From positions 14,057,432 to 14,121,431 of the forward strand of contig NC_092679.1 in the NCBI RefSeq assembly GCF_964355755.1: a DNA stretch of 64,000 nt, given 5' to 3'. Below are positions 30,051 through 64,000 of the stretch, in pieces. Origin of the DNA: Antedon mediterranea (lineage: Eukaryota > Animalia > Echinodermata). The notes under the pieces were generated by a model that did no database searches, was not told the DNA's origin, and saw nothing but the letters and a program-made list of their open reading frames with translations. Positions within the stretch are counted from its first letter, which is position 1. Each line of letters begins with the position of its first letter. A program made the translations under genes and the position numbers.

Positions 30051-30052
30051 TA

Positions 30053-32938: not shown

Positions 32939-34024
32939 CTATTGCCTAGGTCCTTTGTAATTTCGACGTAAACTGCTGCTCTGATTTTGAGGTCGTGTCA
33001 GGTCTGGTGGTCTTGGTGCTACTTTTGAGGGTTTTGACATTTTTCCTGTGGCATTTATTGATGGTAATGTCAAATGGGTATCTTCGTCACTGGGAAGACA
33101 AGTTTCAATCAGCCGTGGTGGGCTCAGTTGTGGCCTGTTCGTTAGTCGCCCATTTGGTGGTTGCTTCCTCGCAGCTTTCTTGTCTGTTGCTGTCTGACGA
33201 CCAATGCTATTCGAGGATCTTCTTCCAATAGCAGCATTATCAAGCGATGGCCTACTTCCTGATTGGATAGTTGGAAATAAGTTAGTAGTACGTCCGACGC
33301 TTCCATCTGAAAGTTTTTGTCTTGTGTCAGAAGTGTAGTGGTTGCCCATCTTTTGACAGCTTGCAGTCGTTGAGCTAGAGTTGCCTCTATGGAGTCTTTT
33401 AAATAAAGGACTAGATTTACCAGCAAGATCAACCATATCCAGAAGACTTCTTTCGTGCTGCTTCTTTCTTTGAGGCTTTCTTGTGTCCTTGATTGAGTCT
33501 GCAAAGTGAAATATAAGTTACACTTTTAATTAGATTAAATTAAAAATTAAAATTAAACTAAAGCATGGTAGACTGGTTTGACTCCATCTCCTATCCCATC
33601 AGTGGTAGCCTATGTGGTTCTTAATTGGGAGACATGTGTTTTACCTTCATGGTTATAGAATCCTATTTTAGATGACATCAAGTCAGACCCAGAAGCGACA
33701 TCTGAAGAATGCACATCAAAGATCTGAAAATCCATGTTTGATCTATATCTACGATCGTCAGATAATCTATATAAGACATGGATTTATAAACAATAATGTT
33801 GTTCTAAATGATTTCGGTACAAATAACTAAATACGGTTATGTATGTAGGCCTATATATTGAATTGGCATGTGGTGTGTACCTAGGCTAAAAAAACATTGA
33901 TACAAAAAAATCGTTCAAAAAATGTTTCAAAACACAAATCTTTTATCTATTTATTATACATGCGATTGAAATTTCATTTAGACTATAATTTAGTAACTTA
34001 CCGTTTGTTTTTTCGTGAAGCCAT
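32939..34024 (-). CDS. Uncharacterised 234-aa basic S/R/K/P-rich protein, copy 1 (type A, MASRKNKR...)
   Basis: Exons 34024-34002 (23 nt, GTAAG donor), 33766-33645 (122 nt) and 33498-32939 (560 nt) splice in frame: MASRKNKRLSDDRRYRSNMDFQIFDVHSSDVASGSDLMSSKIGFYNHEDSIKDTRKPQRKKQHERSLLD + the 165-aa ORF. Confidence 0.8.
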
Positions 34025-34104
34025 TAGTAAATTATGCTGAAATATTTTCGGAGAAATTGTAAGACAGTATAAGCTTGTTTGCTTTTAGACGTTTGTATGT
34101 TGTA

Positions 34105-34190
34105 GTTACTATACTAACGCGATACGTATACAATGGCAACAATCACGCGCTGCGCGCGTTACCATAGCTTGAAGTTAGAGCATGCGCATT
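34105..34190 (-). promoter_or_regulatory. Cluster of RFX X-box-like motifs and an NRF1-like GCATGCGCA upstream of the orphan gene (present before copies 1-5)
   Basis: GTTACTATACTAAC (34105-34118; 13/14 match to GTTNCYATRGNAAC), ATGGCAAC half-site (34133-34140), GTTACCATAGC (34158) and GCATGCGCA (~34180). These lie 80-165 bp upstream of the ATG. Confidence 0.45.
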
Positions 34191-36322
34191 AATGCACTGT
34201 AATCTGCAGCTGTGTGGCAAACAAGTATGACATGAACTTACATTGTTATAAATTAACAAGACCATATATATGGCTGCAGTTGCGTGCGCAAATTTGAGTT
34301 AGTGTCAGACCGACCGACCTACAGACCGATCGACATAGTGAGCTGTAGAGTCGCGTTTGCACGCGATTAAAAATGTTGAACAATTGTTAAAACATTTATA
34401 TTTGCCTCCAAGTATTAATATCGAGTGTCAAAATAATAAAGAAATATGAATATGAGTTAGTGTTTACCGACCGACTAACAGACCGAAATTGCTGAACATG
34501 TTAACCGACTAACAGACCGAAATTGCTGAGCAAGTTAAAAAATGTTGAAAACATTTTTTAAACATTTATATTTGCCTCCAAATATTAATATCCAGTGTCA
34601 AAATAACGAAAAAAAGATGAAGATGAGTTAGTGTTTACACCGACCGACCGAGGGGCGACCGACCAACCGAAATGGTTGAAAATGATAAAAAAAAATGTTG
34701 AACACATTTTAAAAACATTTATATTTGCCGCGCCTCCAAGTATTAATATCCACTGTCAAAATAATGAACAAATATGAATATGAGTTTGTGTTTACACCGA
34801 CCGACTGAGATATAGAGTCGCGTTTGCACGCGACTAAAAACTTGATTTGCATGTTATTTCAAATTTACATATAACAGGCTACAGGTGTGCTAAAAAACCA
34901 AAGCGCAGCAGAAGAAAAAACAACAAGGCCATATAGATGGCTGCAGTCACGTGCTCTATTTAGTGATTACCGACCGACCAACCGACCGACCCACCCACCA
35001 ACCGACCGAAATTGCTGAACATGTTTAAAAATGTTTAAATCTGCGCACTCATGGCAATTTTTTAAACGCTTAAAATTGCCTGAAACGTACTCTTATTTCA
35101 TCGAAAATAAATTTTGACAATTTTTAAAATTTTAAGAGCACATATGCATGCGTTACATGCGCTACGCACGTATTATTATTATTTTAGGGGTCAATGTGAG
35201 ACAAGTTCTACTTCTGATTTTGATCCCTGAGATGGTCTTATATAAATTGTTTATTATTGTTTATTGTAATATTGTTTGCTATATTATATTGTGACCATCT
35301 TAAATAAATGTATTATTAAACTGAATTGTATTGCCATGATGATCTATGAGTACCAAATTTTATTAAATTGTGATTCATGCTTGTGAAGATAATATGATGT
35401 GCAAACATGATTTCCTTAAATCGTGCGTAGACCGCATAATTGTTGATTGCGCACTGTGAAAACATAACCACATCGATTCCTGGCCATAAGGAATATACTG
35501 TGAAAAATTGACATAGCTAGATTAAACTGATATCAAGACAAGGCCTTATACAAGTTAGTGCTTACCGACCGACCGATATAGTGAGCTGTAGAGTAGTCGC
35601 GTTGTTGCACGCGACTAAAAATGTGTAGCATTATTTTCATTGTATAATCGTTTAGTCTAATCTACTTAGTGTATACAGCAATGTGTATCTATACCCTTTC
35701 TACCATAATCATAAAAGAATACAAATCTTTATTTCAGTCTTTTGCAAATTGTTATTGGAGAGGACGATAAATGTATCTACTGCAGTTTATTAGAGGCAGA
35801 GCTGACAGTTGCGCAAAGACGGCTCTGGATAGAGAGGTCATAATGCAGCGAGTTGATTTATCTATATACAAAAAAGTTACTCAACAAACACAAGAGATTG
35901 ACCATCGAGAATGTAGTTTATCTTGTGTATAACATTTTATATTCAATTCATTTCATATTAATTCAGACGTTTAAAAAGTATGCAATTATGTGTCTTGAAC
36001 ATTTATTTTGATCACGTGGTGCCCATGCAGGTTTCCTTTCTTTCGGATCATCAAACGATCGCTTTCATCCACTGTCATCATGCGAAGTTAGACTATGGTT
36101 AATTAGGAATTGAGATACACTCTCATATGAATACATTTAGTTTATTCTGTGACAGTACTCAGTTCGCTGCCATGATCATTGGAACGAAACATGCCTCTGG
36201 GTTTTACCACGTTCTCGTAGTACATACATCTTGAGAGTACAGTAACTTTAAATAAATTAAATTTAAATCATTAAAACAGTCTCTGATACTATGAATTCCT
36301 ATACCAATGTTGTATGGTTTGT

Positions 36323-37402
36323 CTATTGCCTAGGTCCTTTGTAATTTCGACGTAAACTGCTGCTCTGATTTTGAGGTCGTGTCAGGTCTGGTGGTTTTGG
36401 TGCTACTTTTGAGGGTTTTGATATTTTTCCTGTGGCATTTATTGATGGTAATGTCAAATGGGTATCTTCGTCACTGGGAAGACAAGTTTCAATCAGCCGT
36501 GGTGGGCTCAGTTGTGGCCTGTTCGTTAGTCGCCCATTTGGTGGTTGCTTCCTCGCAGCTTTCTTGTCTGTTGCTGTCTTACGACCAATGCTATTCGAGG
36601 ATCGTCTTCCAATAGCAGCATTATCAAGCGATGGCCTACTTCCTGATTGGATGGTTGGAAATAAGTTAGTAGTACGTCCGACGCTTCCATCTGAACGTTT
36701 TTGTCTTGTGTCAGAAGTGTAGTGGTTGCCCATCTTTTGACAGCTTGCATTCGTTGGGCTAGAGTTGCCTCTATGGAGTCTTTTAAATAGAGGACTAGAT
36801 TTACCAGCAAGATCAACCATATCCAGAAGACTTCTTTCGTGCTGCTTCTTTTTTTTAGGTATTCTTGTGTCCTTGATTGAGTCTGCAAAGTGAAATATAA
36901 GTTACACTTTTAATTAGGTCTTCTTTAATTTTAATCCAGTTAAACTAAAGCATGGTAGACTGGTTTTTGACTCCATCTCCTACCCCATCAGTCGTAGCCT
37001 ACATGGTTCTTAATTGGGAGACATGTGTTTTACCTTCGTGGCGGGAGAATCCTATTTTAGATGACATCAAGTCAGACCCAGAAGCGACATCACAAGGATG
37101 CACATCAAAGATCTGAAAATCCGTGTTTGATCTATATCTACGATCGTCAGATAATCTATATAAGACATGGATTTATGAAACAATGATATGATAAATTATT
37201 TCTGTACAAATAACTAATACGCTTATGTATGTAGGCCTATATTATATTGGCGTGTGGTGTACCTAGCTATAAGTATAAAACATTGATACAAAACATCGTT
37301 TAAAAAATGTTTCAAAACACAAATCTATTATCTTTAAATGCGATTGAAAATTCATTTAGACTATAATTTAGTAACTTACCGTTTGTTTTTTCGTGAATCC
37401 AT
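36323..37402 (-). CDS. Uncharacterised 234-aa protein, copy 2 (type B, MDSRKNKR...)
   Basis: Exons 37402-37380, 37155-37034, 36882-36323. Same lengths (23/122/560), intact splice sites and frame. Confidence 0.8.
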
Positions 37403-38922
37403 TACGAATTTTGCTGAAATAATTTCGGAGAAACTGTAAGACAGTGCAAGTTTGTTTGCTTTAGGAGTTTGTATGCTGTGGTTACTATACTAACGCGATA
37501 CGTATACAATGGAAACAATTGCGCACTGCGCGCGTTACCATGGCTAGATGTTGGAGCATGCGCATTAATGCACTGTAAACTGCTGTGTGGAAAAATTTAC
37601 ATATAATAGGCTTCAGGCGTGGTCAGCTTTACCTTTACAGTAACAAACACCGAAGCAGAAGAAAACAACAAAAATGAGTAGCATTATTTTCATTCTTTTA
37701 TTTTAATAATAGATCAGGCACACAGCAGGCTACTTAGTGTATACAGTAGTGTGTTACCCTTTTACCATAATCATGAAAGCATACAAATCTAAATTTCAGT
37801 ATTTTTAATGATCTCTTTGAGAGACAAATTTTGTAAATTATTATCTGAGGATGGTGTAAATGCATCTACTGCAGTTTAGCATAGAAGGCTCCTGGCATTT
37901 AACTGCTGCCCAAAGACTGTTCTGGGGGGCGGAACCAACTACTGGAAAGGTTATAATGCTGTGAGTAAATTTTCTGTACAAAAAAGTTAACTCAACAAAC
38001 ACAAGAGGTTCATCTTTACAGCACTGCAGTAGACTCATTTCACATGTTATTTAAATTGAATACAGTATCCAGAAACTCAACAAGCCAATACATCAATAAC
38101 TCACAGAGCCATTTAACAATTTCACAGCAAAATCAACATAACTTCACACATATGATTTTAATTGAATTGAATAATCAATGAAATAATTTTTACTTTAGTA
38201 AATGGTTATATTTACAACAAAGGAATTGTTTATTGCATTTCAATGGAATACCTAAGAATGAAATGAGGTACTGGTATATGTCATTAGAAAACTAGCTTAT
38301 TACAGAAATATGTATAAATTAGTGTTGAATTGTTGAAAATGTTGAATTGAAAAGTAAAAGTTGACATAATGTATTATAACATTTTGTGAGCTTAAAAATG
38401 GAAATACCTTTACCAAAAACATTTAGTTAAACGTCAAAGTAAAACATTTTAAGAGTAAATGAACAAATTCTGATATGAAATTGTACATAAAGTGGTGGAT
38501 TTAATAAAGAAGAAATAAATGCCAATTTCTGTTGTTTACTTTAATCTACAATCAACAAATAATGAAAATATAATCTATGGAATTACAATAATATATTTGA
38601 ATAAATGATTTATATGATCTGGTGCACATTAGACATTATTACACATTTGCTTCAAGTAAACTTTAAAAAGATTTTATGTTTCAAACAACAGCTGCAATCC
38701 TATAGAATGTAATGAATATTTACCAATGCTTTACATATCAGTGTTGTGTTTGTATAGTCATGAAAGCCTTCACAACACCTTATTTATTTGTAAGAATGAA
38801 GTTTATTATGCTTGTTGATATGCCAAAGTTTACAAAGTAAAGGTGTATAAATGTCTAATTTGCACCATTCCTTACAATGGATGATTGAGTGGTTATAACT
38901 TGGCTTGCTGAGGTCCAAATTG

Positions 38923-39909
38923 TCAAGCGCTGCTTAGAAACTTAATGGCCATGTCTTTCTCCTCCAAAAGCTCCTTTGCGGTTATGTCCATTTTTTCCCG
39001 GGCAAAGTCACTAATGCTCAGGCCGTCTACAACACTCCAGCTTTTGTCAGCTCCAATTTTAACAGGCATACTATACACAATGTCTTTTGGGATACCATAC
39101 TTTGTTCCATCGGAGAGAACACCCATCGACACCCATTCATTCTGAGAAAATGCAAAGTTAACAAAGATGTACAAAAATTAGTCAAGCGGTAAATCAACAA
39201 TATTAATGGTCTTATTTTTATACAAATGTACATACAGAATCATTTTTTTTAAATTTATATTTTACACTTAATAATGGGCAAATTTTTGTTTTACAATTGC
39301 ATATAAATATAAAGCTAAGCTTATGCAATGCTGGTCAGAAAATATGTCCGAGCGGTAAACCAACAATATTAATGGTCCTATTTTTATAAAAATGTATATA
39401 AAGAGCCAGACACACAGAATCATTTTTTTTTCAATTATATTTTACACATAATTATGGGCACATTTTTGTTTTACAATTGCATATAAATATAATAAAGTTA
39501 GGTTATGCAATGCTGGCCAGTGCCGTAATGGCTATGAGCGCTTACTGGCTAAAGGGAAGCCGCCCACCCAGCGTTAGAAGGCCCCTTATTTTCCTCCAAG
39601 CCACTGATATTGTCTATGCTGAGAAATGTGTTTGTATGCTTTCATTTATATAGTTTTGACGTCCAATCTCGTCCTAATACTACTAATTATTAAATTATTA
39701 TCTTCCATACCAACCTCAACTCCCAGCAAACAAAATAAGGAAAACAAATATTTCATCTTTATAAGTTTATTTCATTAATTATATATAGAAAATACCTCTT
39801 TGGTTCCAAACCACCAATCCCTCATGTGATCACCAATAGCCTTTGCTGCTGACATGGCACTGGATAGCTTACGGGCCTTGATCACTGCACAGCCACGTGT
39901 TTGTACCGT
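38923..39909 (-). pseudogene. MDH1: Cytosolic malate dehydrogenase, last two exons only (5'-truncated duplicate)
   Basis: Exon 39909-39796 (114 nt): [38 protein letters not shown]. Exon 39141-38923: [27 protein letters not shown]...[18 protein letters not shown]...SSA*. These are typical MDH1 C-terminal motifs. No upstream MDH1 exons were found in the window. Confidence 0.9.
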
Positions 39910-40490
39910 CTAGAGAAAAAAAATAGAAAGTTAACAATAAATGATTGTATGTATCATTACCTATCCGGCGGAAAATTTTAATGTTTCATATTTTTACATT
40001 GTTTATCTAAATATGCATTTGTGTATTTAAAAAACTGCAGAATTTGTCCTGATATTCTTCAAATTTTCAATACCTCTTCTACTAAAAACAAGGCCAACAG
40101 CCATTAAGTCGCGTGCTACAATGCATAGTGATACCGGACCGACAGACAGACCGACAGACCGACAGACCGACAGACAGACCGACAGACAGACCGACAGACA
40201 GACAGACAGACAGACAGACCGACAGACCGACCGACCGACCGACATAGTGAACTATACTGACCAAAATTACTGAACATGTTTAAAAATGTACGCGCAACAG
40301 AGATCAAATTGATGCGCCCTCATCTTTCAGTATTTTTATTCACGAGGCGGGATCTCCGAAGAGATACTTTTATATATATAAACACAATAGGCAAAGAACA
40401 TTAATTCTAAACCGCCCGGTGATATACTGAAATTTAATTAATTAATTTGAAACGATAAAGATGAGGAAATCTGTGAGAATGAGAAAAAGT

Positions 40491-40563
40491 CGCCCCAACC
40501 GAGACTCGAACTCGGACCGCCCTGCTTGATATGCAGATGTCCTAACCATTAGACCACTGGGGC
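40491..40563 (-). tRNA. tRNA-like cloverleaf, anticodon ATC (nominally Asp); gene or repeat-borne pseudogene
   Basis: GCCCCAG TG GTCTAATGGTTAGGAC A TCTGC ATATCAA GCAGG GCGGT CCGAG TTCGAGT CTCGG TTGGGGC G. Full 7-bp acceptor, D, anticodon and T stems; A and B boxes; TTTTT two bases downstream. Confidence 0.55.
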
Positions 40564-40855
40564 TTTCATGGTATTGTTCGAACTCGATTGGATAACGACT
40601 CTTTAACATTCTCGGCGTGGTACGGCGGAACAGCACTAGTCCGCAGTTGTACGCACGCGCAACAGAGATCAAATTGATGCGCCCTCATCTTTCAGTATTT
40701 TTATTCACGAGGCGGGATCTCCGAAGAGATACTTTTATATATATAAACACAATAGGCAAAGAACATTAATTCTAAACCGCCCGGTGATATACTGAAATTT
40801 AATTAATTAATTTGAAACGATAAAGATGAGGAAATCTGTGAGAATGAGAAAAAGT

Positions 40856-40927
40856 CGCCCCAACTGAGACTCGAACTCGGACCGCCTGCTTGATATGCAG
40901 ATGTCCTAACCATTAGACCACTGGGGC
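40856..40927 (-). tRNA. tRNA-like copy 2 (ATC), one T-stem mismatch
   Basis: Same sequence, 72 nt, T stem CCGAG/CTCAG. Confidence 0.4.
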
Positions 40928-40997
40928 TTTCATGGTATTGTTCGAACTCGATTGGATAACGACTCTTTAACATCCGATTTCCTCATCTTTATCGTTT

Positions 40998-41064
<67 letters not shown>

Positions 41065-41171
41065 AAATCAGGCAAAGAACATTAATTCTAAACCGCCCGG
41101 TGATATACTGAAATTTAATTAATTAATTTGAAACGATAAAGATGAGGAAATCTGTGAGAATGAGAAAAAGT

Positions 41172-41243
41172 CGCCCCAACCGAGACTCGAACTCGTACCG
41201 CCTGCTTGATATGCAGATGTCCTAACCATTAGACCACTGGGGC
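41172..41243 (-). tRNA. tRNA-like copy 3 (ATC), one T-stem mismatch
   Basis: Same sequence, 72 nt, T stem ACGAG/CTCGG. Confidence 0.4.
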
Positions 41244-41379
41244 TTTCATGGTATTGTTCGAACTCGATTGGATAGCGACTCTTTAACATTCTCGGCGTGG
41301 TACGGCGGAACAGCACTAGTCCTCAGTTGTACGCACGCGCACCAGAGATCAAATTGATACATATATATATATATATATT

Positions 41380-43640
41380 TTTAAATACACAATTACGCTA
41401 CAGGACAACACAAACACAACAAAAGGACAAACGTAAAGGGTATAGTATAATGTACTTACATACATATAATTACATATATACTTGCAGGAGGTAAGAAAAA
41501 AAAGTTTGATGAAAAAGTTTTATTAATACGATCTGTATTGTGATAAAAGGAATTGTTTATAATTGGATTTGAATGTATTTAAGTTATTAGTATTTAGTAA
41601 GGATTGACTTAAATTATTCCATACTAGAGGACCATGGTATTTGATAGAATTCCGGATTGTGTTATGGGTTAAATTTATTGTGGCGTAATTGTTGGCGTTT
41701 CTTGTATTGTAGTTGTGAAATTCATTATTTTTGATGAAGAAATGTTTGAAAATATTTGGAAGTTGATTGTTTGAATATCTGTGCATAAGTGTGGCGATTT
41801 GTAATTTGTTAATATCGAAGATGTTTAGGGTATTAAGTTTAAAGAAAAGGGACTTTGTGTGGGCTATATAGTGAGAATTGGTACAAATGCGAATAGCCCG
41901 TTTTTGGAGTTTAAAGAGTTTGTCTAATTTAGAAATATGTGTGGAAGCCCATGGACAGAGAGTTTTATTTTTAGTATCTGTAATTCCCCAAGCAATGTTA
42001 CAATAGGATAGATAAGGTAAAATTAATGTGTTATATAAAGAAAAGAGGATATTAGAGGGTAGAATATAATTATTTAAGTTTTTTTAGACACCGATGTTTT
42101 TTGAAATTTTATTAGTTATATTTGTTATATGGGTTTTCCAGTTTAAGTTATCATCTATAGTTACACCAAGGAACTGAGAATAAGTAACCCTTTTGATAGG
42201 AGTGTTTTCTATATGGATTGTGTTTTGATTGTCATTCCGTGTTCTATTTGGAGAAAAGTGTATATATTCAGTTTTGTTCAGTGAGAGTCTATTAAGTTTA
42301 AGCCAGTGAGATATATGTTTTATTTCCTTATTAAAAATTCTGGTTAAGGTGTTGTAGTCAGGATGGGAGGAAAAAATGTTCGTGTCGTCGGCAAACAGGA
42401 CGTATTCAAAAGAGTTGGAAGCGTTGATGATGTCGTTGACATAAATGAGAAAAAGTAGAGGACCAAGAATTGATCCTTGGGGCACATCGCAGGTTATAGG
42501 AAGAACTTCTGAGGAGTAGGAGCCGAAAGAGGTGATTTTTTTAAGATAGTTAGAAAGTAGAGATAGAGGAGTTCCGCGGATACCATAGTGACTTAGTTTA
42601 GTTAAAAGAATTGTGTGGTTAATAGTGTCAAATGCTTTAGACAAGTCCAAAAATAAGCCAATAGTATGGTGGTTTTTAGATAAGGCGTTAGAGATTTTAC
42701 TTTGAATGTCAAGGATTGCAAGATCGGTAGAATGTTTTGGTCTGAAGCCATATTGGTTATCATGAAAAGATGTATGTGAAGAAAGAAAGTTGTAAAGTCT
42801 ATTGTATATAAGGCGTTCGAGTATTTTAGAAAAGCAAGGCAAAATTGAGATTGGACGGTAGTTTTCAAAGGAATGGGAATAATTTTTTTTATGAATAGGA
42901 ATTACTTTGGCGATTTTTAAGGATGATGGAAATACACCATTAGTTAGTGATAGATTAAAGATGTGGGTAAGGGGTCTGGTAATAAAAGGTCCAATTTCTT
43001 TAATAATCGTGGGTTCAATATCATCAAGGCCAGCACTTTTACTGTTTTTTAGATTAGAAATTATTTCAAGAATCTCTTTACCAGATGTAGGTTGGAAGAA
43101 AATTGAATTTTGAGTGGGTTTCCTTAGATAATCAGTAAAGTTGCCATAAGTAGCCGAAATTTTAGAAGAAAGTTTAGGTCCAATATCAGTAAAATAGCGA
43201 TTGAATTTATTGGCAATTTGAGATGGGTCAGTAATGTTTGTACCATTATCTGTAAAATAACTAGGAAGCGTCTTTGTGGTGTTTTTACAGAGAATGTTAT
43301 TAATTATATTCCAGGTTTTTTTAATGTTATTTTTATAGTCGTTAAACTTATTTGTATAGTGTTGCTTACATGATGTTCTTATTAATCGTGTGAGTTTATT
43401 TCTGTAAGTAATGTAATTGGTTTTATTAATCATATTTGGTGTTTTTATATATTTTTTATATAATTTATTTCTATTGTTTATAGATTTGATTATACCTTTT
43501 GTTATCCATGGTTTACAAAGTTTACGTTTGTTAATTTTAGTTCTTGTCTTTGGGAGGTGAGTATCGTATAGTGAAGAAAATCTGTCGAGAAAAATATTGT
43601 AGGATTCATTTGCAGAGTTATTTTGGTAGAGTTGAAAAAG
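41380..43640 (-). mobile_element. 5'-truncated CR1/L2-group LINE related to the one at 3285-5285
   Basis: ORF 42084-43724 has KPWITKGI, NYRPISILPCFSKILER, FLDLSKAFDT, VPQGSILGPLLF and FADDT. A frameshifted C-terminus continues to 41523. Shares the CPW insertion with the element at ~4100. Confidence 0.93.
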
Positions 43641-52300: not shown

Positions 52301-52939
52301 CCAAAGGAGGGTCACCCGCACATGCTTCCCAAGATCAGCCAGTCTCTCTTACCCTGAACGTTTGAAACGCCTTAATCTGATGTCCATTAACAATCGCATT
52401 AGGTATTTATGTATTAATTTTGTTACCAAATGTATGTACAAATTATATGATGTTAATGTTTTTAAATATTTATCTATTAATTGCAGACATGTTAATAACC
52501 TTAAGTTGCGCAATAATTTTATAGCCCGGACTGATTTATTTCATAACTCTGTCTTTAATTTTTTTGTTAGACATTTTAGAGATCTGCCTGCGGATCTCTG
52601 CGACCAACTTTTAATTAATATAAACTGTTTTAAGCATATTTTAACAATCTGTTTTAATCTGAACATATGTATATTTTAAAGATATTTTCTTAATTCTATC
52701 TTTTTAAATTAACAATTTTTTATAAAAACACATTGCTGAATTTTATAGTTTTATCTAAATTTTAATAGAATCCATGTATTATTCATTTTATGTAAGTATT
52801 TCGATGTGGAGAGCCTCTCGACGGTTATTTTTATTTGTAACTTTTAGGTTATCCGGCCTCATTGACTTACTTTTGTATTGTTTTTTTGTACTGTTCTGTA
52901 TATTGGCGAAATAAATGATATGATATGATATGATATGAT
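49397..52939 (+). mobile_element. Near full-length single-ORF CR1/L2-group LINE (leader-2A-APE endonuclease-RT), frameshifted
   Basis: TSD AACTAC (49391-49396, 52940-52945; empty site CCAACTACTAG in paralogous spacers) and (ATGAT)n tail. Motifs NINAHSI, MTESWL, RKDRNRHGGGV, YRPP, AGD, SDH, KSPGPDGI, GVPQGSVIGP, YADDT. Disruptions at ~51320, ~51490 and ~52025. Confidence 0.95.
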
Positions 52940-53432
52940 AACTACTAGAGAGGTCATAATGCAGCGAGTTGAATTATCTATATACAAAAAAGTTACTCAA
53001 CAAACACAAGAGATTGACCATTGAGAATGTAGTTTATCTTGTGTATAACCTTTTATTTTCAAATAATTTCATATTAATTCAGACGTTTAAAAAGTATGCA
53101 ATTATGTGTCTTGAAAATTTATTTTGATCACGTGGTGCCCATGCAGGTTTCCTTTCATTCGTATCATCAAACGGTCGCTTTCATGCACTGTCATCATGCG
53201 AAGTTAGACTATGGTTAATTAGGAATAATTGAGATACACTCTCATATGGATACATTTAGTTTATTCTGTGACAGTACTCAGTTCGCTGCCATGATCATTA
53301 GAACGAAACATGGCTCTGGGTTTTACCACGTTCTCGTAGTACATACATCTTGAGAGTACAGTAACTTTAAATAAATTAAATTTAAATCATTAAAACAGTC
53401 TCTGATACTATGACAACTGTTGTATGGTTTGT

Positions 53433-54459
53433 CTATTGCCTAGGTCCTTTGTAATTTCGACGTAAACTGCTGCTCTGATTTTGAGGTCGTGTCAGGTCTG
53501 GTGGTCTTGGTTCTACTTTTGAGGGTTTTGAAATTTTTCCTGTGGCATTTATTGATGGTAATGTCAAATGGGTATCTTCGTCACTGGGAAGACAAGTTTC
53601 AATCAGCCGTGGTGGGCTCAGTTGTGGCCTGTTCGTTAGTCGCCCATTTGGTGGTTGCTTCCTCGCAGCTTTCTTTTCTGTTGCTGTCTGACGACCAATG
53701 CTATTCGAGGATCGTCTTCCAATAGCAGCATTATCAAGCGATGGCCTACTTCCTGATTGGATGGTTGGAAATAAGTTAGTAGTACGTCCGACGCTTCCAT
53801 CTGAAAGTTTTTGTCTTGTGTCAGAAGTGTAGTGGTTGCCCATCTTTTGACAGCTTGCAGTCGTTGAGCTAGAGTTGCCTCTATGGAGTCTTTTAAATAG
53901 AGGACTAGATTTACCAGCAAGATCAACCATATCCAGAAGACTTCTTTCGTGCTGCTTCTTTCTTTGAGGCTTTCTTGTGTCCTTGATTGAGTCTGCAAAG
54001 TGAAATATAAGTTGCACTTTTAATTAGGTCTTCTTTAATTTCAATCCATTTAAACTAAAGCATGGTAGGCCTAGACATGTGTTTTACCTTCGTGGCGGGA
54101 GAATCCTATTTTAGATGACATCAAGTCAGACCCAGAAGCGATATCTGAAGGATGCACATCAAAGATCTGAAAATCCATGTTTGATCTATATCTACGATCG
54201 TCAGATAATCTATATAAGACATAGATTTATAAAACAATGATATGATAAATTATTTCTGTAAAAATAACTAATACGGTTATGTATGTAGGCCTATATTATA
54301 CTGGCATGTGGTGTACCTAGCTATAAGTATAAAACATTGATACAAAACATCGTTTAAAAAATCTTTCAAAACACATTCTATTTTCTATCTTTAAATGCGA
54401 TTGAAAATTCATTCAGAATATAATTTAGTAACTTACCGTTTGTTTTTTCGTGAATCCAT
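53433..54459 (-). CDS. Uncharacterised 234-aa protein, copy 4 (type B; shortened intron 2)
   Basis: Exons 54459-54437, 54209-54088, 53992-53433; intact. Confidence 0.8.
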
Positions 54460-56056
54460 TACGAATTTTGCTGAAATAATTTCGGAGAAACTGTAAGACA
54501 ATGCAAGTTTGTTTGCTTTAGGAGTTTGTATGCTGTGGTTACTATACTAACGCGATACGTATACAATGGCAACAATCGCGCACTGCGCGCGTTACCATGG
54601 CTATATATTGGAGCATGCGCATTAATGCACTGTAAACTGCTGTGTGGCAGCAAAAAACGACATGAAATTACCGTACAAAAAAAATTTGATTATTTCAAAT
54701 TTACTTATAATAGTCTACAGGCGTGGTCAGCTTTACCTTTACAGTAACAAACACCGAAGCAGAAGAAAACAACAAAAATGAGTAGCATTATTTTCATTTT
54801 ATAATTATTCTTTTATTTTAATAATAGATCAGGCACACAGCAGGCTACTTAGTCTACAGTAGTGTGTATTTATACCCTTTTACCATAATTATGAAAGCAT
54901 ACAAATCTAAATTTCAATCATTTTAATGATCTCTTTGATTGACAAATTTTGTAAATTATTATCTGAGGATGGTGTAAATGCATCTACTGCAGTTTAGCAT
55001 AGAAGGCTCCTGGCATTTAACTGCTGCCCAATGACTGTTCTGGGGGGCGGAAACAACTACTGGAAAGGTTATAATGCAGTGAGTAAATTTCCTGTACAAA
55101 CACAAGAGGTTCATCTTTACAGCACCGCAGTAGATTCATTTCACATGTTATATAAATTGAATACAGTATCCCGAAACTCAACAGGCCAATACATCAATAA
55201 CTCACAGAGCCATTTAACAATTTCACAGCAAAATCAACAGAACTTCACACATATGATTTTGAGTGAATTGAATAATCAATGAAATAATTTTTACTTTAGT
55301 AAATGGTTATATTTACAACAAAGGAATTGTTTATTGCATTTCAATGGAATACCTAAGAATGAAATGAGGTACTGGTATATGTCATTAGAAAACTAGCTTA
55401 TTACGGAAATATGTAAATTAGTGTTTTTAGAACAACAAAAGAAAACGTTGAATTGAAAAGTAAAAGTTGACATAATGTATTATAACATTTTGTGAGCTTA
55501 AAAATGGAAATACCTTTACCAAAAACATTTAGTTAAACGTCAAAGTAAAACATTTTAAGAGTGAATGAACAAATTCTGATATGAAATTGTACATAAAGTG
55601 GTGGATTTAACATAGAAGAAATAAATGCCAATTCCTGTTGTTTACTTTAATCTACAATCAACAAATAATGAAAATATAATCTATGGATCAATAATATATT
55701 TGAATAAATGATTTATTTAATATGGTGCACATTAGACATTATAACACATTTTGCTTCATGTAAACTATAAATAGATTTTATGTTTCAAACAACAGCTGCA
55801 ATCCTATAGAATGTAATGAATATTTACCAATGCTTTACATATCAGTGTTGTGATAGCTTCTGCAACTACCCCAATGTTTTTATAGTTATGAAAGCCTTCA
55901 CAACAGCTATTTATTTGTAAGAATGGAGTAAAGTTTATTATGCTTGTTGATGTTCCAAAGTTTACAAAGTAAAAGTGTATAATTATGTCTAATTTGCACC
56001 ATTCCTTACAATAGATGATTGAGTGGTTATAACTTGGATTGCTGAGGTCCAAATTG

Positions 56057-56305
56057 TCAAGCGCTGCTTAGAAACTTAATGGCCATGTCTTTCTCCTCCA
56101 ACAGCTCCTTTGCGGTTATGTCCATTTTTTCCCGGGCAAAGTCACTAATGCTCTGGCCGTCGACAACACTCCAGCTTGTGTCAGCATACTACACACAATG
56201 TTTTTTGCAATCCCTCATGTGATCACCAATAGCCTTTGCTGCTGACATGGCACTGGACAGCTTACGGGCCTTCATCACTGCACTGCCACGTGTTTGGTAT
56301 ACCGT
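56057..56305 (-). pseudogene. MDH1: Deleted/fused remnant of the same two MDH1 exons
   Basis: Same sequence with a 16-bp deletion and a ~0.7-kb deletion joining the interior of the last exon to the interior of the previous exon at ~56208. Confidence 0.9.
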
Positions 56306-58256
56306 CTAGAGAAAAAAAATAGAAAGTTAACAAAAAAATGATTGTATGTCTCATTACCCTATCCGGCGGAAAATTTTAATGTTTTATACTTTTACATTGT
56401 TTATCTAAATAGGCATTGGTGTATTTAAAAAACAGCAGAATTTGTCCTGATATTCTTCAAATTTTCAATAGCTCTTCTACTAAAAAAATGCATTAATATT
56501 AAAAAGTATATTTTGAGGTGGTCGAAAACGTAAAAAAAGATGAAAATGAGTTAGTGTTTACACCGACCGACCAACCGAAATTGCTGAAAATGTTTAAAAA
56601 AATGTTGAACACATTTAAAAAACATTTATAATTGCCCCCAAGTATTAATATCCACTGTCAAAATAATGAAAAAATATGAATATGAGTTTTTGTTTACACC
56701 GACCGACTGAGATATAGAGTCGCGTTTGCACGCGACTAAAAACTTGATTTGTATGTTATTTCAAATTTACATATAACAGGCTACAGGTGTACTCAGCTTA
56801 ATTACCTTTACAACAAAAACCAAAGCGCAGCAGAAGAAAAAACAACAAGGCCCTACTATGTGGCTGCAGTCGCGTGCTCAAGTTAGTGTTTACCGACCGA
56901 CAAACCGACCGAAATTGCTGAACATGTTGAAAATGTTTAAAAACATTTATATATTTTTAATTTACACGTGTGTAGCCTGTCACATTTGACGTGCTCGTAT
57001 AACGTAATGTTGAGTTGAAAAGTGAATCAAATAATGATGATATTATTAAAGAAAGGTTGTAAAACAGAAATCGGGCACAAACAGAGTGCATATTAACATT
57101 TAACGCGCAGTGCGCGTACACAAATCTGCGCACTCATGGAAATTTTTTAAACGCTTAAAATTGCCAATTTGGAAAATGTTAAGCGCGCATATGCATGTGT
57201 TACATGCGCTACGCACGTAATTGTATTGCCATGATGATTTATGCCTTGAAATTTAGGACTACCAAATTTGATTTAATTGTGATTCATGCTTCTGAAGATA
57301 TGATTACAAACATGATTTCGTTAAATCGTCCGTAGACCGCGTAATTTTTGATTGCGCACCGTGAAAACAAAACCACATCGATTCATGGCCATAAGGAATA
57401 TACTGTGAAAAATTGACTTAGCTAGATGAAACTGATATCAAGACAAAGCCAATACAAGTTAGTGCTTACAGACCGACCGACCGACCGACCAACCAACCAA
57501 CCGACCGATATAGTGAGCTATAAAGTCGCGTTGCACGCGACTAAAAATGTGTAGCATTATTTTCATTGTATAATTAATCGTTTAGTCTAATCTACTTAGT
57601 GTATACAGCAATGTGTATCTATACCCTTTCTACCATACTCATGAAAGAATACAAATCTTTATTTCAGTCTTTTGCAAATTCTTATTGGAGAGGACGATAA
57701 ATGTATCTACTGCAGTTTATTAGAGGCAGAGCTGACTGTTGCGCAAAGACGGCTCTGGGTGGAACAACCGGCCAACTACTAGAGAGGTCATAATGCAGCG
57801 AGTTGTCTATATATACAGAAGTTACTCAACAAACACAAGAGATTGACCATTGAGAATGTAGTTTATCTTGTGTATAACATTTTATTTTCAAATCATTTCA
57901 TATTAATTCAGACGTTTAAAAAGTATGCAATTATGTGTCTTGAAAATTTATTTTGATCACGTGGTGCCCATGCAGGTTTCCTTTCATTCGGATCATCAAA
58001 CGGTCGCTTTCATCCACTATCATCATGCGAAGTTAGACTATGGTTAATTAGGAATTGGGATACACTCTCACATGAATACATTTAGTTTATTCTGTGAAAA
58101 TACTCAGTTCGCTGCCATGATCATTGGAACGAAACTTGGCTCTGGGTTTTACCACGTTCTCGGAGTACATACATCTTGAGAGTTCAGCAACTTAATAAAT
58201 TAAATTTAAATCATTAAAAGAGTCTCTGATACTATGACAACTGTTGTATGGTTTGT

Positions 58257-59337
58257 CTATTGCCTAGGTCCTTTGTAATTTCGACGTAAACTGCTGCTCT
58301 GATTTTGAGGTCGTGTCAGGTCTGGTGGTCTTGGTGCTACTTTTGAGGGTTTTGAAATTTTTCCTGTGGCATTTATTGATGGTAATGTCAAATGGGTATC
58401 TTCGTCACTGGGAAGACAAGTTTCAATCAGCCGTGGTGGGCTCAGTTGTGGCCTGTTCGTTAGTCGCCCATTTGGTGGTTGCTTCCTCGCAGCTTTCTTG
58501 TCTGTTGCTGTCTGACGACCAATGCTATTCGAGGATCGTCTTCCAATAGCAGCATTATCAAGCGATGGCCTACTTCCTGATTGGATGGTTGGAAATAAGT
58601 TAGTAGTACGTCCGACGCTTCCATCTGAAAGTTTTTGTATTGTGTCAGAAGTGTAGTGGTTGCCCATCTTTTGACAGCTTGCATTCGTTGGGCTAGAGTT
58701 GCCTCTATGGAGTCTTTTAAATAGAGGACTAGATTTACCAGCAAGATCAACCATATCCAGAAGACTTCTTTCGTGATGCTTCTTTCTTTGAGGCTTTCTT
58801 GTGTCCTTGATTGAGTCTGCAAAGTGAAATATAAGTTACACTTTTAATTAGGTCTTCTTTAATGTCAATCCATTTAAACTAAAGCATGGTAGACTTGTTT
58901 GACTCCATCTCCTACCCCATCAGTGGTAGCCTACATGGTTCTTAGTTGGGAGACATGTGTTTTACCTTCGTGGCGGGAGAATCCTATTTTAGATGACATC
59001 AAGTCAGACCCAGAAGCGACATCTGAAGGATGCACATCAAAGATCTGAAAATTCGTGTTTGATCTATATCTACGATCGTCAGATAATCTATATAAGACAT
59101 GGATTTATAAAACAATGATATGATAAATTATTTCTGTATAAATAACTAATACGGTTATGTATGTAGGCCTATATTATACTGGCATGTGGTGTACCTAGCT
59201 ATAAGTATAAAACATTGATACAAAACATCGTTTAAAAAATCTTTCAAAACACATTCTATTTTCTATCTTTAAATGCGATTGAAAATTCATTCAGAATATA
59301 ATTTAGTAACTTACCGTTTGTTTTTTCGAGAATCCAT
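58257..59337 (-). CDS. Uncharacterised 234-aa protein, copy 5 (type B)
   Basis: Exons 59337-59315, 59087-58966, 58816-58257; intact. Confidence 0.8.
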
Positions 59338-60104
59338 TACGAATTTTGCTGAAATAATTTCTTTTCGGAGAAACTGTAAGACAGTGCAAGTTTGTTTGCT
59401 TTAGGAGTTTGTATGCTGTGTGGTTACTATACTAACGCGATACGTATACAATGACAACAATCGCGCACTGCGCGCGTTACCATGGCCAGATGTAGGAGCA
59501 TGCGCATTAATGCACTGTAATCTGCTGTGTGGCAGCAAAAAACGACATGAAATTACCGTATTAAAAAAAAATTGTTGATTATTTCAAATTTAAATATAAT
59601 AGGCTACAGGCGTGGTCAGCTTTACCTTTACAGTAACAAACACCGAAGCAGAAGAAAACAACAAAAATGAGTAGCATTATTTTCATTTTATAATCATTCT
59701 TTTATTTTAATAATAGATCAGGCACACAGCAGGCTACTTAGTGTATACAGTAGTGTGTATCTATACCCTTTTACCATAATCATGAAAGCATACAAACAAA
59801 TCTAAATTTCAGTATTTTTAATGATCTCTTTGATTGACAAATTTTGTAAATTATTATCTGAGGATGGTGTAAATGCATCTACTGCAGTTTAGCGTAGAAG
59901 GCTCCTGGCATTTAACTGCTGAAAAAAGACTTCTCTGGGCAGAGCCAACTACTGGAAAGGTTATAATGCAGTGAGTAAATTGTCTATACTAAAAAGTTAC
60001 TCAACAATCACAAAAGGTTCATCATCTTTTCAGCACTGCAGTAGACTCATTTCACATGTTATATAAATTGAATACAGTATCCAGTAACTCAACAGGCCAA
60101 TACA

Positions 60105-60685: not shown

Positions 60686-61279
60686 GAGTGAATGAACAAA
60701 TTCTGATATGAAATTGTACATAAAGTGGTAGATTTAACATAGAAGAAATAAATGCCAATTCCTGTTGTTTACTTTAATCTACAATCAACAAATAATGAAA
60801 ACATAATCTATGGAATTACAATAATATATTTGAATAAATGATTTATAAGATCTGGTGCACATTAGACATTATTACACATTTGCTTCAAGTAAACTTTAAA
60901 AAGATTTTATGTTTCAAACAACAGCTGCAATCCTATAGAATGTAATGAATATTTACCAATGCTTTACATATCAGTGTTGTGTTTGTATAGTCATGAAAGC
61001 CTTCACAACACCTATTTATTTGTAAGAATGAAGTTTATTATGCTTGTTGATGCGCTAGAAGGCCCCTTATTTTCCTCCAAGCCACTGATATTGTCTATGC
61101 TGAGAAATTTGTTTGTATGCTTTCATTTATACAGCTTTGACGTCCTATCTCGTCCTAATACTACTAATTATTAAATTATTATCTTACATACCAAAGCTCC
61201 CAACTCCCAGCAAACAAAATAAGGAAAACAAATATTTCATCTTTATAAGTTTATTTCATTAATTATATATAGAAAATAC

Positions 61280-61316
61280 CTCTTTGGTTCCAGACCACCA
61301 ATCCCTCGTGTACCGT
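61280..61316 (-). pseudogene. MDH1: 37-bp relic of the penultimate MDH1 exon; last exon deleted entirely
   Basis: CTCTTTGGTTCCAGACCACCAATCCCTC|GTGTACCGT with flanking intron sequence as at 39580-40080. The junction at ~61051 removes the terminal exon. Confidence 0.8.
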
Positions 61317-63037
61317 CTGGAGAAAAAAAATAGAAAGTTAACAATAAATGATTGTATCATTACCTATCCGGCGGAAAATTTTAATGTTTCATACTTTTAC
61401 ATTGTTTATCTAAATAGGCATTGGTGTATTTAAAAAACTGCAGAATTTGTCCTGATATTCTTCAAATTTTCAATAGCTCTTCTACTTAAAAAATGCATTA
61501 ATATTAAAAAGTATATTTTGAGGTGGTCGAAAACGTAACATACATACATGCATATAACAGGCTACAGGTGTACTCAGCTTAATTAATTACAACAAAAATC
61601 AAAGCGTAGCAGAAGAAAAAAACAAGAAGGCCCTACTATGTGGCTGTAGTCGCGTTCTCAAGTTAGTGTTTACCGACCGACCAACCGACCGAAATTGCTG
61701 AACATGTTTAAAAATGTTGAAAATGTTTAGAAACATTTATATTTTTTAAATTTACACGTGCGTAGCCTGTCACTTTTGACGTGCCCGTATAACGTAATTT
61801 TGAATTGAAAAGTGAATCAAATAATGATGATATTATTAAAGAAAGGTTGTAAAACAGAAATCGGGCACAAAAAGAGTGCATATTAACATTAACGCGCAGT
61901 GCGCGTGCACAAATCTGCGCACTCATGGCAATTTTTTTTTAACTCTTAAAATTGCCAATTTAGAACATTTTAAGCGCGCATATGCATGTGTTACATGCGC
62001 TACGCACGTAATTATATTGCCATGATGATTTATGCCCTGAAATTTATGAGTACCAAATTTGATTTAATTGTGATTCATGCTTGTGAAGTTATGATTACAA
62101 ACATGATTTCGTTAAATCGTCCGTAGACCGCGTAATTTTTGATTGCGCACCGTGAAAACATAACAACATCGATCCCTGGCCATAAGAAATATACTGTGAA
62201 AAATTGACTTAGCTAGATGAAACTGATATCAAGACAAGGCCTTATACAAGTTAGTGCTTACCGACCGACCGATATAGTGAGCTGTAGAGTCGCGTTGTTG
62301 CACGCGACTAAAAATGTGTAGCATTATTTTCATTGTATAATTGTTTAGTCTAATCTACTTAGTGTATACATCAATGTGTATCTATACCCTTTCTACCATA
62401 ATCATGAAAGAATACAAATCTTTATTTCAGTCTTTTGCAAATTGTTATTGGAGAGGATGATGAATGTATCTACTGCAGTTTATTAGAGGCAGAGCTGACA
62501 GTTGCGCAAAGACGGCTCTGGGTGGAACAACCGGCCAACTACCAGAGAGAGGTCATAATGCAGCGAGTTGAATTATCTATATACAAAAAAGTTACTCAAC
62601 AAACACATGAGATTGACCATCGAGAATGTAGTTTATCTTGTGTATAACATTTTATTTTCAAATCATTTCATATTAATTCAGACGTTTAAAAAGTATGCAA
62701 TTATGTGTCTTGAAAATTTATTTTGATCACGTGGTTCCCATGCAGGTTTCCTTTCATTCGAATCATCAAACGGTCGCTTTCACCCACTGTCATCATGCGA
62801 AGTTAGACTATGGTTAATTAGGAATTGGGATACACTCTCACATTAATACATTTAGTTTATTCTGTGACAGTACTCAGTTCGCTGCCATGATCATTGGAAC
62901 GAAACATGGCTCTGGGTTTTACCACGTTCTCGGAGTACATACATCTTGAGAGTACAGTAACTTTAAATAAATTAAATTTAAATCATTAAAACAGTCTCTG
63001 ATACTATGAATTCCTATACCACTGTTGTATGGTTTGT

Positions 63038-63863
63038 CTATTGCCTAGGTCCTTTGTAATTTCGACGTAAACTGCTGCTCTGATTTTGAGGTCGTGTCAG
63101 GTCTGGTGGTCTTGGTGCTACTTTTGAGGGTTTTGACATTTTTCCTGTGGCATTTATTGATGGTAATGTCAAATGGGTATCTTCGTCACTGGGAAGACAA
63201 GTTTCAATCAGCCGTGGTGGGCTCAGTTGTGGCCTGTTCGTTAGTCGCCCATTTGGTGGTTGCTTCCTCGCAGCTTTCTTGTCTGTTGCTGTCTGACGAC
63301 CAATGCTATTCGTGGATCGTCTTCCAATAGCAGCATTATCAAGCGATGGCCTACTTCCTGATTGGATGGTTGGAAATAAGTTAGTAGTACATCCGACGCT
63401 TCCATCTGAAAGTTTTTGTCTTGTCTCAGAAGTGTAGTGGTTGCCCATCTTTTGACAGCTTGCAGTCGTTGAGCTAGAGTTGCCTCTATGGAGTCTTTTA
63501 AATAAAGGACTAGATTTACCAGCAAGATCAACCATATCCAGAAGACTTCTTTCGTGCTGCTTCTTTCTTTGAGGCTTTCTTGTGTCCTTGATTGAGTCTG
63601 CAAAGTGAAATATAAGTTACACTTTTAATTAGGTCTTGTTTAATTTCAATCCATTTAAAGCATGGTAGACTGGTTTGACTCCATCTCCTATCCCATCAGT
63701 GGTAGCCTATGTGGTTCTTAATTGGGAGACATGTGTTTTACCTTCATGGTTAGAGAATCCTATTTTCGATGACATCAAGTCAGACCCAGAAGCGACATCT
63801 GAAGAATGCACATCAAAGATCTGAAAATCCATGTTTGATCTATATCTACGATCGTCAGATAAT
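63038..63863 (-). CDS. Uncharacterised protein, copy 6 (type A introns; exon 1 beyond window)
   Basis: Exons 63863-63742 and 63597-63038 intact. The window ends in intron 1. Confidence 0.75.
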
Positions 63864-64000
63864 CTATATAAGACATGGATTTATAAACAATAATGTTGTT
63901 CTAAATGATTTCGGTACAAATAACTAAATACGGTTATGTATGTAGGCCTATATATTGAATTGGCGTGTGGTGTGTAGGTGTGTGTAGCCTACCTAGGCTA

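What the first reader, a model, noticed from the sequence alone, without database searches (positions are those of the whole stretch)
32939..64000. Ampliconic family of an unrecognised three-exon gene encoding a 234-aa basic, disordered protein
Seen: the repeated 165-aa ORF is only part of exon 3. Two small upstream exons (23 and 122 nt, canonical GT/AG, phases 2 and 1) splice in frame to give a 234-aa protein. Five complete copies and one edge-cut copy keep exact exon lengths, splice sites and open frames, while introns, UTRs and the neighbouring MDH1 fragments have gathered many indels. The protein is S/R/K/P/T-rich with no hydrophobic core or domain I recognise, and ends ..LTLPSIN..VAPRPP..RRNYKGPRQ. 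Inference: a functional, recently amplified, possibly lineage-specific gene. Tandemly amplified, fast-changing basic orphans are typical of germline/sperm genes or genetic-conflict loci, but nothing here proves that.
Basis: partly seen in the sequence, partly recalled or inferred. Interest (0 to 1): 0.8.

Follow-up and report, generated by a model that had tools for sequence, protein, structure and literature searches.

The report
Feather-star orphan gene with cilia-type promoter
A feather star carries at least seven near-identical tandem copies of a three-exon gene with no detectable relative outside the species; it would encode a disordered basic protein, and conserved RFX-like promoter motifs suggest it is likely switched on in sperm or other ciliated cells, although its expression is untested.

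Summary
Five full copies and one cut copy keep 23+122+560-nt exons, GT/AG sites and a 234-codon frame. The organism is Antedon mediterranea. RefSeq already lists three in-window copies letter for letter as 'uncharacterized protein', plus a seventh copy and a diverged paralogue. No relative outside the species was found.

The coding sequence has 0 indels against about 6 expected (P 0.002-0.009), yet dN/dS is about 1.2. The frame is kept; the amino acids are not visibly constrained.

The gene sits just past the 3' end of MDH1. An older A/B duplication was re-copied in blocks of about 10 kb together with MDH1 3' exons, and the 3' halves are mosaic.

New here: a conserved cluster of RFX X-box-like motifs 80-145 nt upstream of the ATG, pointing to spermatids or ciliated cells. 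In the one run that shows splicing, this gene appears only as intron-retaining contigs. Expression, function, sex linkage and genetic conflict are untested. A real but fairly ordinary amplified orphan, with one testable clue.

The parts
32939..34024 (-). Copy 1 (class A): exon 1 34024-34002, exon 2 33766-33645, exon 3 33498-32939; 234 aa; not among the 4 RefSeq cluster members
36323..37402 (-). Copy 2 (class B): exon 1 37402-37380, exon 2 37155-37034, exon 3 36882-36323; identical to XP_071963668.1
46625..47711 (-). Copy 3 (class A): exon 1 47711-47689, exon 2 47454-47333, exon 3 47184-46625; not among the RefSeq cluster members
53433..54459 (-). Copy 4 (class B): exon 1 54459-54437, exon 2 54209-54088, exon 3 53992-53433; identical to XP_071963877.1; 56-nt deletion in intron 2
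58257..59337 (-). Copy 5 (class B): exon 1 59337-59315, exon 2 59087-58966, exon 3 58816-58257; its last 197 aa are identical to XP_071963548.1
63038..63863 (-). Copy 6 (class A by exon 2), cut by the window edge: exon 2 63863-63742, exon 3 63597-63038
37534..37547 (-). X-box-like site, 1 mismatch to GTNRCCNNRGYAAC, 145-132 nt upstream of the copy 2 ATG; also 54591-54604 (copy 4) and 59476-59489 (copy 5); weaker in class A (47847-47860, 2 mismatches; copy 1 not matched at 2 mismatches)
   Evidence: consensus from PMC10530576
37481..37494 (.). Near-palindromic X-box-like 14-mer, invariant in 5 of 5 copies (also 34105-34118, 47795-47808, 54538-54551, 59423-59436); a monomer site GTTGYCA lies between the two boxes in 4 of 5 copies
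39796..39909 (-). MDH1 penultimate exon, intact in the copy 2 block; truncated or internally deleted near 56208-56306 and 61290-61317
38926..39141 (-). MDH1 last coding exon, intact; partial copy at 56059-56185; absent from the copy 5 block
37480..38925 (-). MDH1 3' UTR region running into the promoter of copy 2; contigs of run X1 cover 37915-39141 and 37593-37876
30338..40094 (.). Higher-order block of about 10 kb (MDH1 3' exons + class B copy + class A copy), repeated at 44119-56486 with a LINE inserted; the left edge of the array is an MDH1 intron remnant at about 30338-30480
30471..32200 (.). Very high-copy interspersed repeats at block junctions and between copies (also 34250-35600, 43629-45890, 56500-57500, 61551-62240)

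Best explanation
This is a lineage-restricted three-exon gene of the feather star Antedon mediterranea, copied in tandem together with the 3' end of the neighbouring MDH1 gene, whose predicted product is a disordered basic protein that is likely switched on by RFX-type transcription factors in flagellated cells, most likely spermatids. Shown: the exon structure, seven or more copies, the missing indels, the two promoter/intron classes, the mosaic 3' halves and the conserved X-box-like motifs. Inferred history: one gene lay just past MDH1; an older tandem duplication made classes A and B; unequal crossing-over, probably helped by the very abundant repeats at the block edges, then multiplied an MDH1-3'-end + B + A block; conversion or crossing-over keeps exon 3 uniform. 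Inferred function: a short-motif, charge-driven accessory protein of the ciliary or spermiogenesis programme, in which length, frame and composition matter more than individual residues. Whether it acts in the flagellum or the spermatid nucleus cannot be told from sequence.
For: Gene model; RefSeq proteins equal copies 2, 4 and 5 with 0 differences. Frame constraint: 0 coding indels against 6.3 expected; codon-position GC periodicity P=0.0003; the two indels in the shared-frame part of paralogue P0004 are in frame (4 aa and 1 aa). Disorder: mean pLDDT 50, pTM 0.12, 1 of 234 residues at 70 or above (single-sequence model); pI 10.6, FoldIndex -0.22. History: 15 informative sites group copies 2/4/5 against 1/3/6 from intron 1 to early exon 3, while 0 of 9 do so in the 3' flank; A-B divergence falls from about 15% in intron 1 to 1-2% in exon 3. 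Promoter: 3 of the 4 window sites within 1 mismatch of the X-box consensus lie about 140 nt upstream of class B ATGs; background is 1 site in 30.3 kb (nominal P about 0.007 per 200 bp); a second X-box-like 14-mer and a 25-nt block are invariant in 5 of 5 copies. RFX motifs mark ciliary promoters in choanoflagellates (21.9% against 2.0%; PMC10530576, passages) and RFX2 drives spermiogenesis and flagellum genes in mouse (PMC4498915, passages).
Against: No spliced contig of this gene was seen: one search lists no joint in 4 of 4 runs, and run X1, which does splice MDH1 (joint 39141-39796), holds intron-retaining contigs over the gene; its tissue is unknown. omega is 1.18 overall (8 S, 30 N; P=0.85 against neutrality), and 0 nonsense changes against 1.9 expected is not significant. 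The indel contrast is weak against the 3' flank alone (P=0.085), and AT-rich non-coding DNA is more indel-prone (own knowledge). The X-box was noticed by eye and tested afterwards; no site is a perfect match; the copies are not independent observations; RFX also regulates non-ciliary genes such as MHC class II. No known microtubule-inner-protein signature is present. The only named Atlas neighbour, TEX33/CIMIP4, scores 0.75, within chance.
Confidence: 0.4

Rival explanations
1. The gene is real, but the extra copies are passengers in an unstable, repeat-rich segment. Only one or two copies matter and the amplification is a near-neutral copy-number variant, not a dosage or conflict adaptation. 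This is compatible with the best explanation's view of the gene itself.
For: MDH1 3' pieces were co-amplified and block edges lie in very high-copy repeats. omega is about 1.2. The three class A copies have weaker X-box-like sites and are not among the RefSeq cluster members. Contig depth over exon 3 is only about 1.5-2.2 times that of single-copy-looking contigs in runs X2 and X5 but about 5-13 times in X3, a rough hint of variable copy number; the tool warns that such depth is no copy number.
Against: All six copies, class A included, are free of coding indels, whereas the MDH1 coding pieces in two of three blocks are truncated or deleted. Conversion from functional copies could, however, produce that pattern without selection on each copy.
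Confidence: 0.3
2. The product is a sperm nuclear basic or transition-type chromatin protein like Drosophila Atlas, amplified by sexual selection or genetic conflict.
For: pI 10.6, about 26 kDa, and a K-K-K-K nuclear-import-like run in copy 2 resemble Atlas (about 20 kDa, pI 10.7, no HMG box; PMC8445463, passages). Sperm nuclear basic protein genes amplify in tandem repeatedly in Drosophila (PMC9917458, passages). An RFX-type promoter would also fit spermatids.
Against: K+R is only 19-20% with 9-10% D+E, far from protamine-like (own knowledge). No HMG or histone-type domain in Pfam. No evidence of sex linkage or of omega significantly above 1 (exon 3 omega 1.62, P=0.48).
Confidence: 0.15
3. 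There is no protein-coding gene: the region is read-through or background transcription behind MDH1, and the three-exon frame is a prediction that survives because the copies are young.
For: Only intron-retaining contigs in run X1; no homologue; omega near 1; an alternative frame of 124-127 codons and an antisense frame of 93 codons also stay open in all six copies, so open frames alone prove little.
Against: 0 of 20,000 shuffles give a stop-free exon 3, and three-base periodicity fits this frame. Coding indels are absent. Splice sites and promoter blocks are invariant across 15%-diverged classes. RefSeq independently gives the same 234-aa product; whether those models rest on RNA reads I could not see.
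Confidence: 0.07
4. The array is largely an assembly artefact of merged haplotypes.
For: Depth in runs X2 and X5 suggests only about two copies per single-copy equivalent (rough). Blocks 1 and 2 are about 95% identical over 4.8 kb.
Against: There are three A and three B copies in the window plus a further RefSeq copy (5 or more differences from each) and three differently broken or intact MDH1 3' sets, more than two haplotypes can supply. A LINE is private to the copy 4 block. The public runs hold only 34-50% of the stretch's words, so they are probably not the assembled individual and cannot test this assembly.
Confidence: 0.06

Closest known systems
RefSeq Antedon mediterranea uncharacterized proteins XP_071963668.1, XP_071963877.1, XP_071963548.1, XP_071963378.1 and XP_071963771.1
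   Same: The first three equal copies 2, 4 and 5 (0 differences; copy 5 over its last 197 aa). The fourth is a 234-aa copy outside the window. The fifth is a 169-aa paralogue, 76% identical in the alignment, on a contig of the same length.
   Different: They carry no function. Class A copies 1, 3 and 6 are not among the cluster members. The N-terminus of the 169-aa model matches the alternative frame of exon 3, which suggests a frameshift in that copy (inference).
Drosophila atlas (orphan basic spermatid protein; PMC8445463, passages read)
   Same: Small, basic (pI 10.7 against 10.6), no recognised domain, nuclear-import-like motif, lineage-restricted.
   Different: Atlas is shown to act in spermatid chromatin condensation; nothing is shown here. 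No sequence relationship was tested or is claimed.
Amplified sperm nuclear basic protein genes of Drosophila (PMC9917458, passages read)
   Same: Young tandem amplifications of basic-protein genes, with copy number differing between strains.
   Different: Those carry HMG boxes, are testis-expressed and mostly sex-linked. Here there is no HMG box, and expression and linkage are unknown.
RFX target genes of the cilia/flagellum programme (PMC10530576, PMC4498915, PMC3245922; passages read)
   Same: X-box-like motifs close to the start, more than one per promoter, at distances like the C. elegans two-box example (-149 and -199).
   Different: Sites here are imperfect, binding is untested, and the protein has none of the described microtubule-inner-protein signatures I could test (PMC10973386, passages).

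Membership tests
Lineage-restricted (orphan) protein-coding gene family | No detectable homologue outside the lineage | tested here: met
   Only A. mediterranea hits; none. Whether other crinoid proteomes are fully held, and synteny, could not be checked, so fast divergence of an old gene is not excluded.
Lineage-restricted (orphan) protein-coding gene family | Coding signature: frame, splice sites, periodicity, indel avoidance | tested here: met
Lineage-restricted (orphan) protein-coding gene family | Spliced mRNA and translation | tested here: inconclusive
   No joint for this gene; intron-retaining contigs in X1, tissue unknown; translation not testable
Lineage-restricted (orphan) protein-coding gene family | Purifying selection on amino acids | tested here: not met
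   omega 1.18 among six copies, 38 changes only, so low power
RFX target gene (cilia/flagellum programme) | X-box near the start, conserved | tested here: met
   1-mismatch sites in 3 of 3 class B copies, invariant second site in 5 of 5 copies; post hoc, imperfect matches
RFX target gene (cilia/flagellum programme) | RFX binding and RFX-dependent expression in ciliated cells | not testable with these tools
   needs ChIP, reporter or knock-down
Microtubule inner proteins (Mn, PYG, GFG, NWE, SNYG, ELLEn, DM10 modules) | Signature module present | tested here: not met
   No PYG, GFG, NWE, SNYG or ELLE string and no aromatic-spaced Mn-like pattern (my own recalled pattern) in 3 of 3 proteins; no Pfam or PDB hit at E 10
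Sperm nuclear basic proteins (protamine-like, HMG-box type) | HMG box or histone-H1-type domain, or very high R/K content | tested here: not met
   No Pfam domain; K+R 19-20%, D+E 9-10%; pI above 10 is met
Sex-linked ampliconic testis genes | Multicopy at 97% identity or more | tested here: met
   Exon 3 is 97.7-99.1% identical to copy 1; introns are less alike
Sex-linked ampliconic testis genes | Sex-chromosome linkage and testis-specific expression | not testable with these tools
   No genome held; sex and tissue of runs not given
Transposon-encoded ORF | Transposase, reverse transcriptase or other element domain | tested here: not met
   No Pfam hit; no homologue in 1.84 billion representatives beyond the paralogue

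The most novel reading that the evidence does not exclude
A crinoid-specific, RFX-driven spermatid gene whose promoter lies inside the 3' UTR region of MDH1 and whose copy number differs several-fold between individuals or sexes: an ampliconic germline locus under sexual or genetic conflict in an echinoderm, which could mark a sex-linked region in crinoids.
Probability: 0.12. Interest if true: 0.65.

Novelty: new member of a known kind. Interest (0 to 1): 0.33.

Why it matters
Amplified, fast-changing, disordered orphan genes are well described in flies and mammals, so the kind of thing is not new, and RefSeq already predicts the protein. What is added is the structure and history of the array, the contrast between a kept frame and free amino acids, and a conserved RFX-like promoter that turns 'uncharacterized' into a direct test: look in spermatids and ciliated larval cells. 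If it proved sperm-specific with sex-dependent copy number, it would give an entry into germline gene amplification and possibly sex linkage in crinoids, for which my searches listed no paper.

Tried and rejected
No whole genome is held for this window, so copies outside it, the rest of MDH1 and synteny could not be examined.

Sequencing-run search: no RNA holder listed on record; this is not used as evidence. Laying later showed that X1 contains a spliced MDH1 contig. In one search, 382 joint rows were not shown, so absence of a joint for this gene rests only. Depth figures were not used to rank expression.

Copy number from contig depth is inconsistent between libraries of one sample code and may reflect GC or library bias; kept only as a hint.

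Homology searches without an outside hit: exon 3 at 101-324 aa; full protein against longer proteins, 0 of 1207 candidates; residues 1-95, only itself among 13 candidates; phmmer over 1.84 billion representatives with exon 3 only; metagenome contigs, 0 of 241 pattern hits confirmed; Pfam; PDB profile; Atlas, best score 0.79 and no usable named hit for residues 150-234. Proteins shorter than 101 aa and of 325-410 aa were not covered for exon 3 in the word-indexed search.

The alternative 118-codon frame of exon 3 was considered as the true product and rejected: exon 2 has a stop in that frame (read), periodicity favours the main frame, and its only Pfam hit is E 0.027, below cut-off. No fold search was run because the model has pTM 0.12. 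A conserved 'LPxI' ciliary motif, recalled from memory, found 0 papers as LPPI + motif + cilia and was dropped. Rfam finds no RNA family in the gene or promoter. The five accession numbers appear in 0 papers. No supplements were read.


Full report
What was checked. Five complete copies (ATG at 34024, 37402, 47711, 54459, 59337) and one copy cut by the window edge have exons of identical length, no gap and no internal stop. Donor and acceptor sequences are identical in every copy present. Exon 3 is 97.7-99.1% identical to copy 1.

Organism and annotation. A search with exon 3 returned 2 of 104 candidates, both 'uncharacterized protein' of the feather star Antedon mediterranea. The first cluster has four members, all read. 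Three of them equal my translations of copies 2, 4 and 5 with 0 differences (copy 5 over its last 197 residues). The fourth differs from every in-window copy by 5 or more residues and so is a seventh copy. A 169-aa paralogue is 76% identical in the alignment; its N-terminus follows the alternative frame of exon 3, which suggests a frameshift in that copy (inference). Copies 1, 3 and 6 are not among the cluster members. I could not see whether the RefSeq models rest on RNA reads.

Is it a gene? The coding sequence has 0 indel events and 35 substitutions; flanks and introns have 24 and 134. Scaled by substitutions, 6.3 indels were expected (Poisson P=0.002; Fisher P=0.009). Against the 3' flank alone P=0.085. 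GC at codon positions 1/2/3 is 45/50/32% (P=0.0003) and 0 of 20,000 shuffles of exon 3 are stop-free. Against this, the six copies differ by 8 synonymous and 30 non-synonymous changes (omega 1.18, not different from 1), and 0 nonsense changes against 1.9 expected is not significant. Two other frames over exon 3 also stay open in all copies, so open frames alone are weak evidence. Overall the frame is kept while residues drift, as expected of a weakly constrained disordered protein or of copies homogenised by conversion.

The protein. pI 10.6, 26 kDa, 20% K+R, 9% D+E, FoldIndex -0.22. The single-sequence AlphaFold model has mean pLDDT 50 and pTM 0.12, which fits disorder but also the lack of an alignment. 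No Pfam family at E up to 10 in 4 of 4 proteins and no PDB match. No relative outside the species in any search; Atlas neighbours score below 0.8. Identity to the paralogue rises from 38 of 50 to 39 of 45 residues toward the C-terminus, a mild hint that the tail matters most.

How the array arose. The gene lies on the same strand directly behind MDH1 (cytosolic malate dehydrogenase, E 1.6e-24). Copies fall into class A (1, 3, 6) and class B (2, 4, 5): 15 informative sites from intron 1 to early exon 3 support this split and 0 of 9 in the 3' flank do. A-B divergence is about 15% in intron 1 and 1-2% in exon 3. This pattern is what conversion or unequal crossing-over in the 3' half would leave (inference). 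Class B copies keep the MDH1 3' UTR upstream; class A copies keep only about 200 nt before interspersed repeats. A block of about 10 kb (MDH1 last two exons, UTR, B copy, A copy) at 30338-40094 recurs at 44119-56486 with a LINE inserted, and a rearranged block follows. Block edges lie beside very abundant repeats. The MDH1 exons are intact only in the copy 2 block. Whether that set is the functional one, which would place the rest of the array inside an MDH1 intron, cannot be told from the window.

Public runs. Five runs of one coded organism hold 34-50% of the sampled words, so they are probably other individuals (inference). The gene is therefore present beyond this assembly, with exon 3 contigs carrying 0-2 differences in X1 and X2. 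Run X1 holds a 1354-nt contig that joins MDH1 exons across 39141-39796 at a canonical intron, absent from the three other runs laid, so it contains spliced RNA. Over this gene X1 has contigs that run through intron 1 and into intron 2, and one search lists no joint in 4 of 4 runs. The tissue is unknown, so this neither shows nor excludes expression elsewhere. Depth over exon 3 relative to single-copy-looking contigs is about 1.5-2.2 in X2 and X5 and 5-13 in X3; the tool warns that this is no copy number, and I treat it as a hint only.

The promoter clue. Reading upstream of the ATG I noticed RFX X-box-like motifs and then tested them. With the consensus GTNRCC-N-RGYAAC given in PMC10530576 (passages) at a 2-nt spacer, the window has 4 sites within one mismatch. 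Three lie about 140 nt upstream of the class B ATGs, and one lies in the first 30.3 kb (nominal P about 0.007 for a 200-nt window). A second, near-palindromic X-box-like 14-mer at about -90 and a 25-nt block further upstream are invariant in 5 of 5 copies, and the monomer site GTTGYCA lies between the boxes in 4 of 5. Class A copies have a weaker first box. RFX motifs mark ciliary promoters in choanoflagellates, RFX2 controls spermiogenesis and flagellum genes in mouse (PMC4498915, passages), and paired boxes at similar distances occur in C. elegans (PMC3245922, passages). The test was post hoc, the matches are imperfect, the copies count as one observation, and binding is untested.

Comparison with known kinds. 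It is not a member of the described microtubule-inner-protein module families on the signatures I could test (PMC10973386, passages), nor an HMG-box or protamine-like protein. In size, charge and orphan status it resembles Drosophila Atlas (PMC8445463, passages), and in tandem amplification the fly sperm nuclear basic protein genes (PMC9917458, passages), but sex linkage and testis expression are unknown. The five accessions appear in 0 papers; listings for Antedon genomics and crinoid sperm or testis showed nothing on this locus. Earlier scan findings gave nothing near this place or by sequence; those listed concern other loci and did not bear on the reading.

Verdict. A real, lineage-restricted, tandemly amplified gene already predicted by RefSeq; a new member of a known kind. 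The most likely role is in the RFX-driven sperm or cilia programme (confidence 0.4). The extra copies may well be passengers (0.3). Conflict or sex linkage remains possible but has no support here. Interest 0.33.

Noticed in passing
window 40290-41377: A 316-bp unit in three copies, each with a tRNA-like sequence called tRNA-Asp with the unusual anticodon ATC (40491-40563, 40856-40927, 41172-41243; Rfam 51-54 bits); possibly a tRNA-derived repeat or pseudogenes.
   Followed up: partly
window 49395-52946: A LINE-like element with endonuclease and reverse-transcriptase-like frames (49427-52679, interrupted by stops) inserted in the 3' flank of copy 4 only, with an AACTAC target-site duplication and an (ATGAT)n tail.
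   Followed up: partly
window 38926-39909: The only intact MDH1 3' exon pair is the most downstream one; the two upstream sets are broken. If the set beyond the window is also broken, MDH1 would splice across the whole array.
   Followed up: no
window 37480-37876: An X1 contig continues the MDH1 3' UTR region across the orphan's promoter to about 75 nt before the copy 2 ATG (placed by analogy with copy 1); its strand is unknown, so it may be a long MDH1 UTR or an antisense transcript.
   Followed up: partly
window 37670-38010 and 32205-32512: The distal MDH1 3' UTR region and the orphan's 3' flank share about 340 bp at 67-68% identity, a trace of an older duplication.
   Followed up: partly
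window 33001-33038: Runs X3 and X4 carry substitutions here that match the diverged paralogue P0004 as their main contig path, unlike X2 (except 33001), hinting at a second subfamily of variable abundance.
   Followed up: no
window 21288-21841 (minus strand): Frames that look like a signal peptide plus a cysteine-rich LRR N-terminal cap, possibly the start of an LRR receptor gene (recalled resemblance).
   Followed up: no
window 12070-13373 and 6752-8219: AT-rich satellites: a 63-bp unit in about 21 copies and a related 92-103-bp unit array.
   Followed up: no
window 3671-5068, 28427-30096, 41523-43769: Further LINE reverse-transcriptase-like remnants.
   Followed up: no
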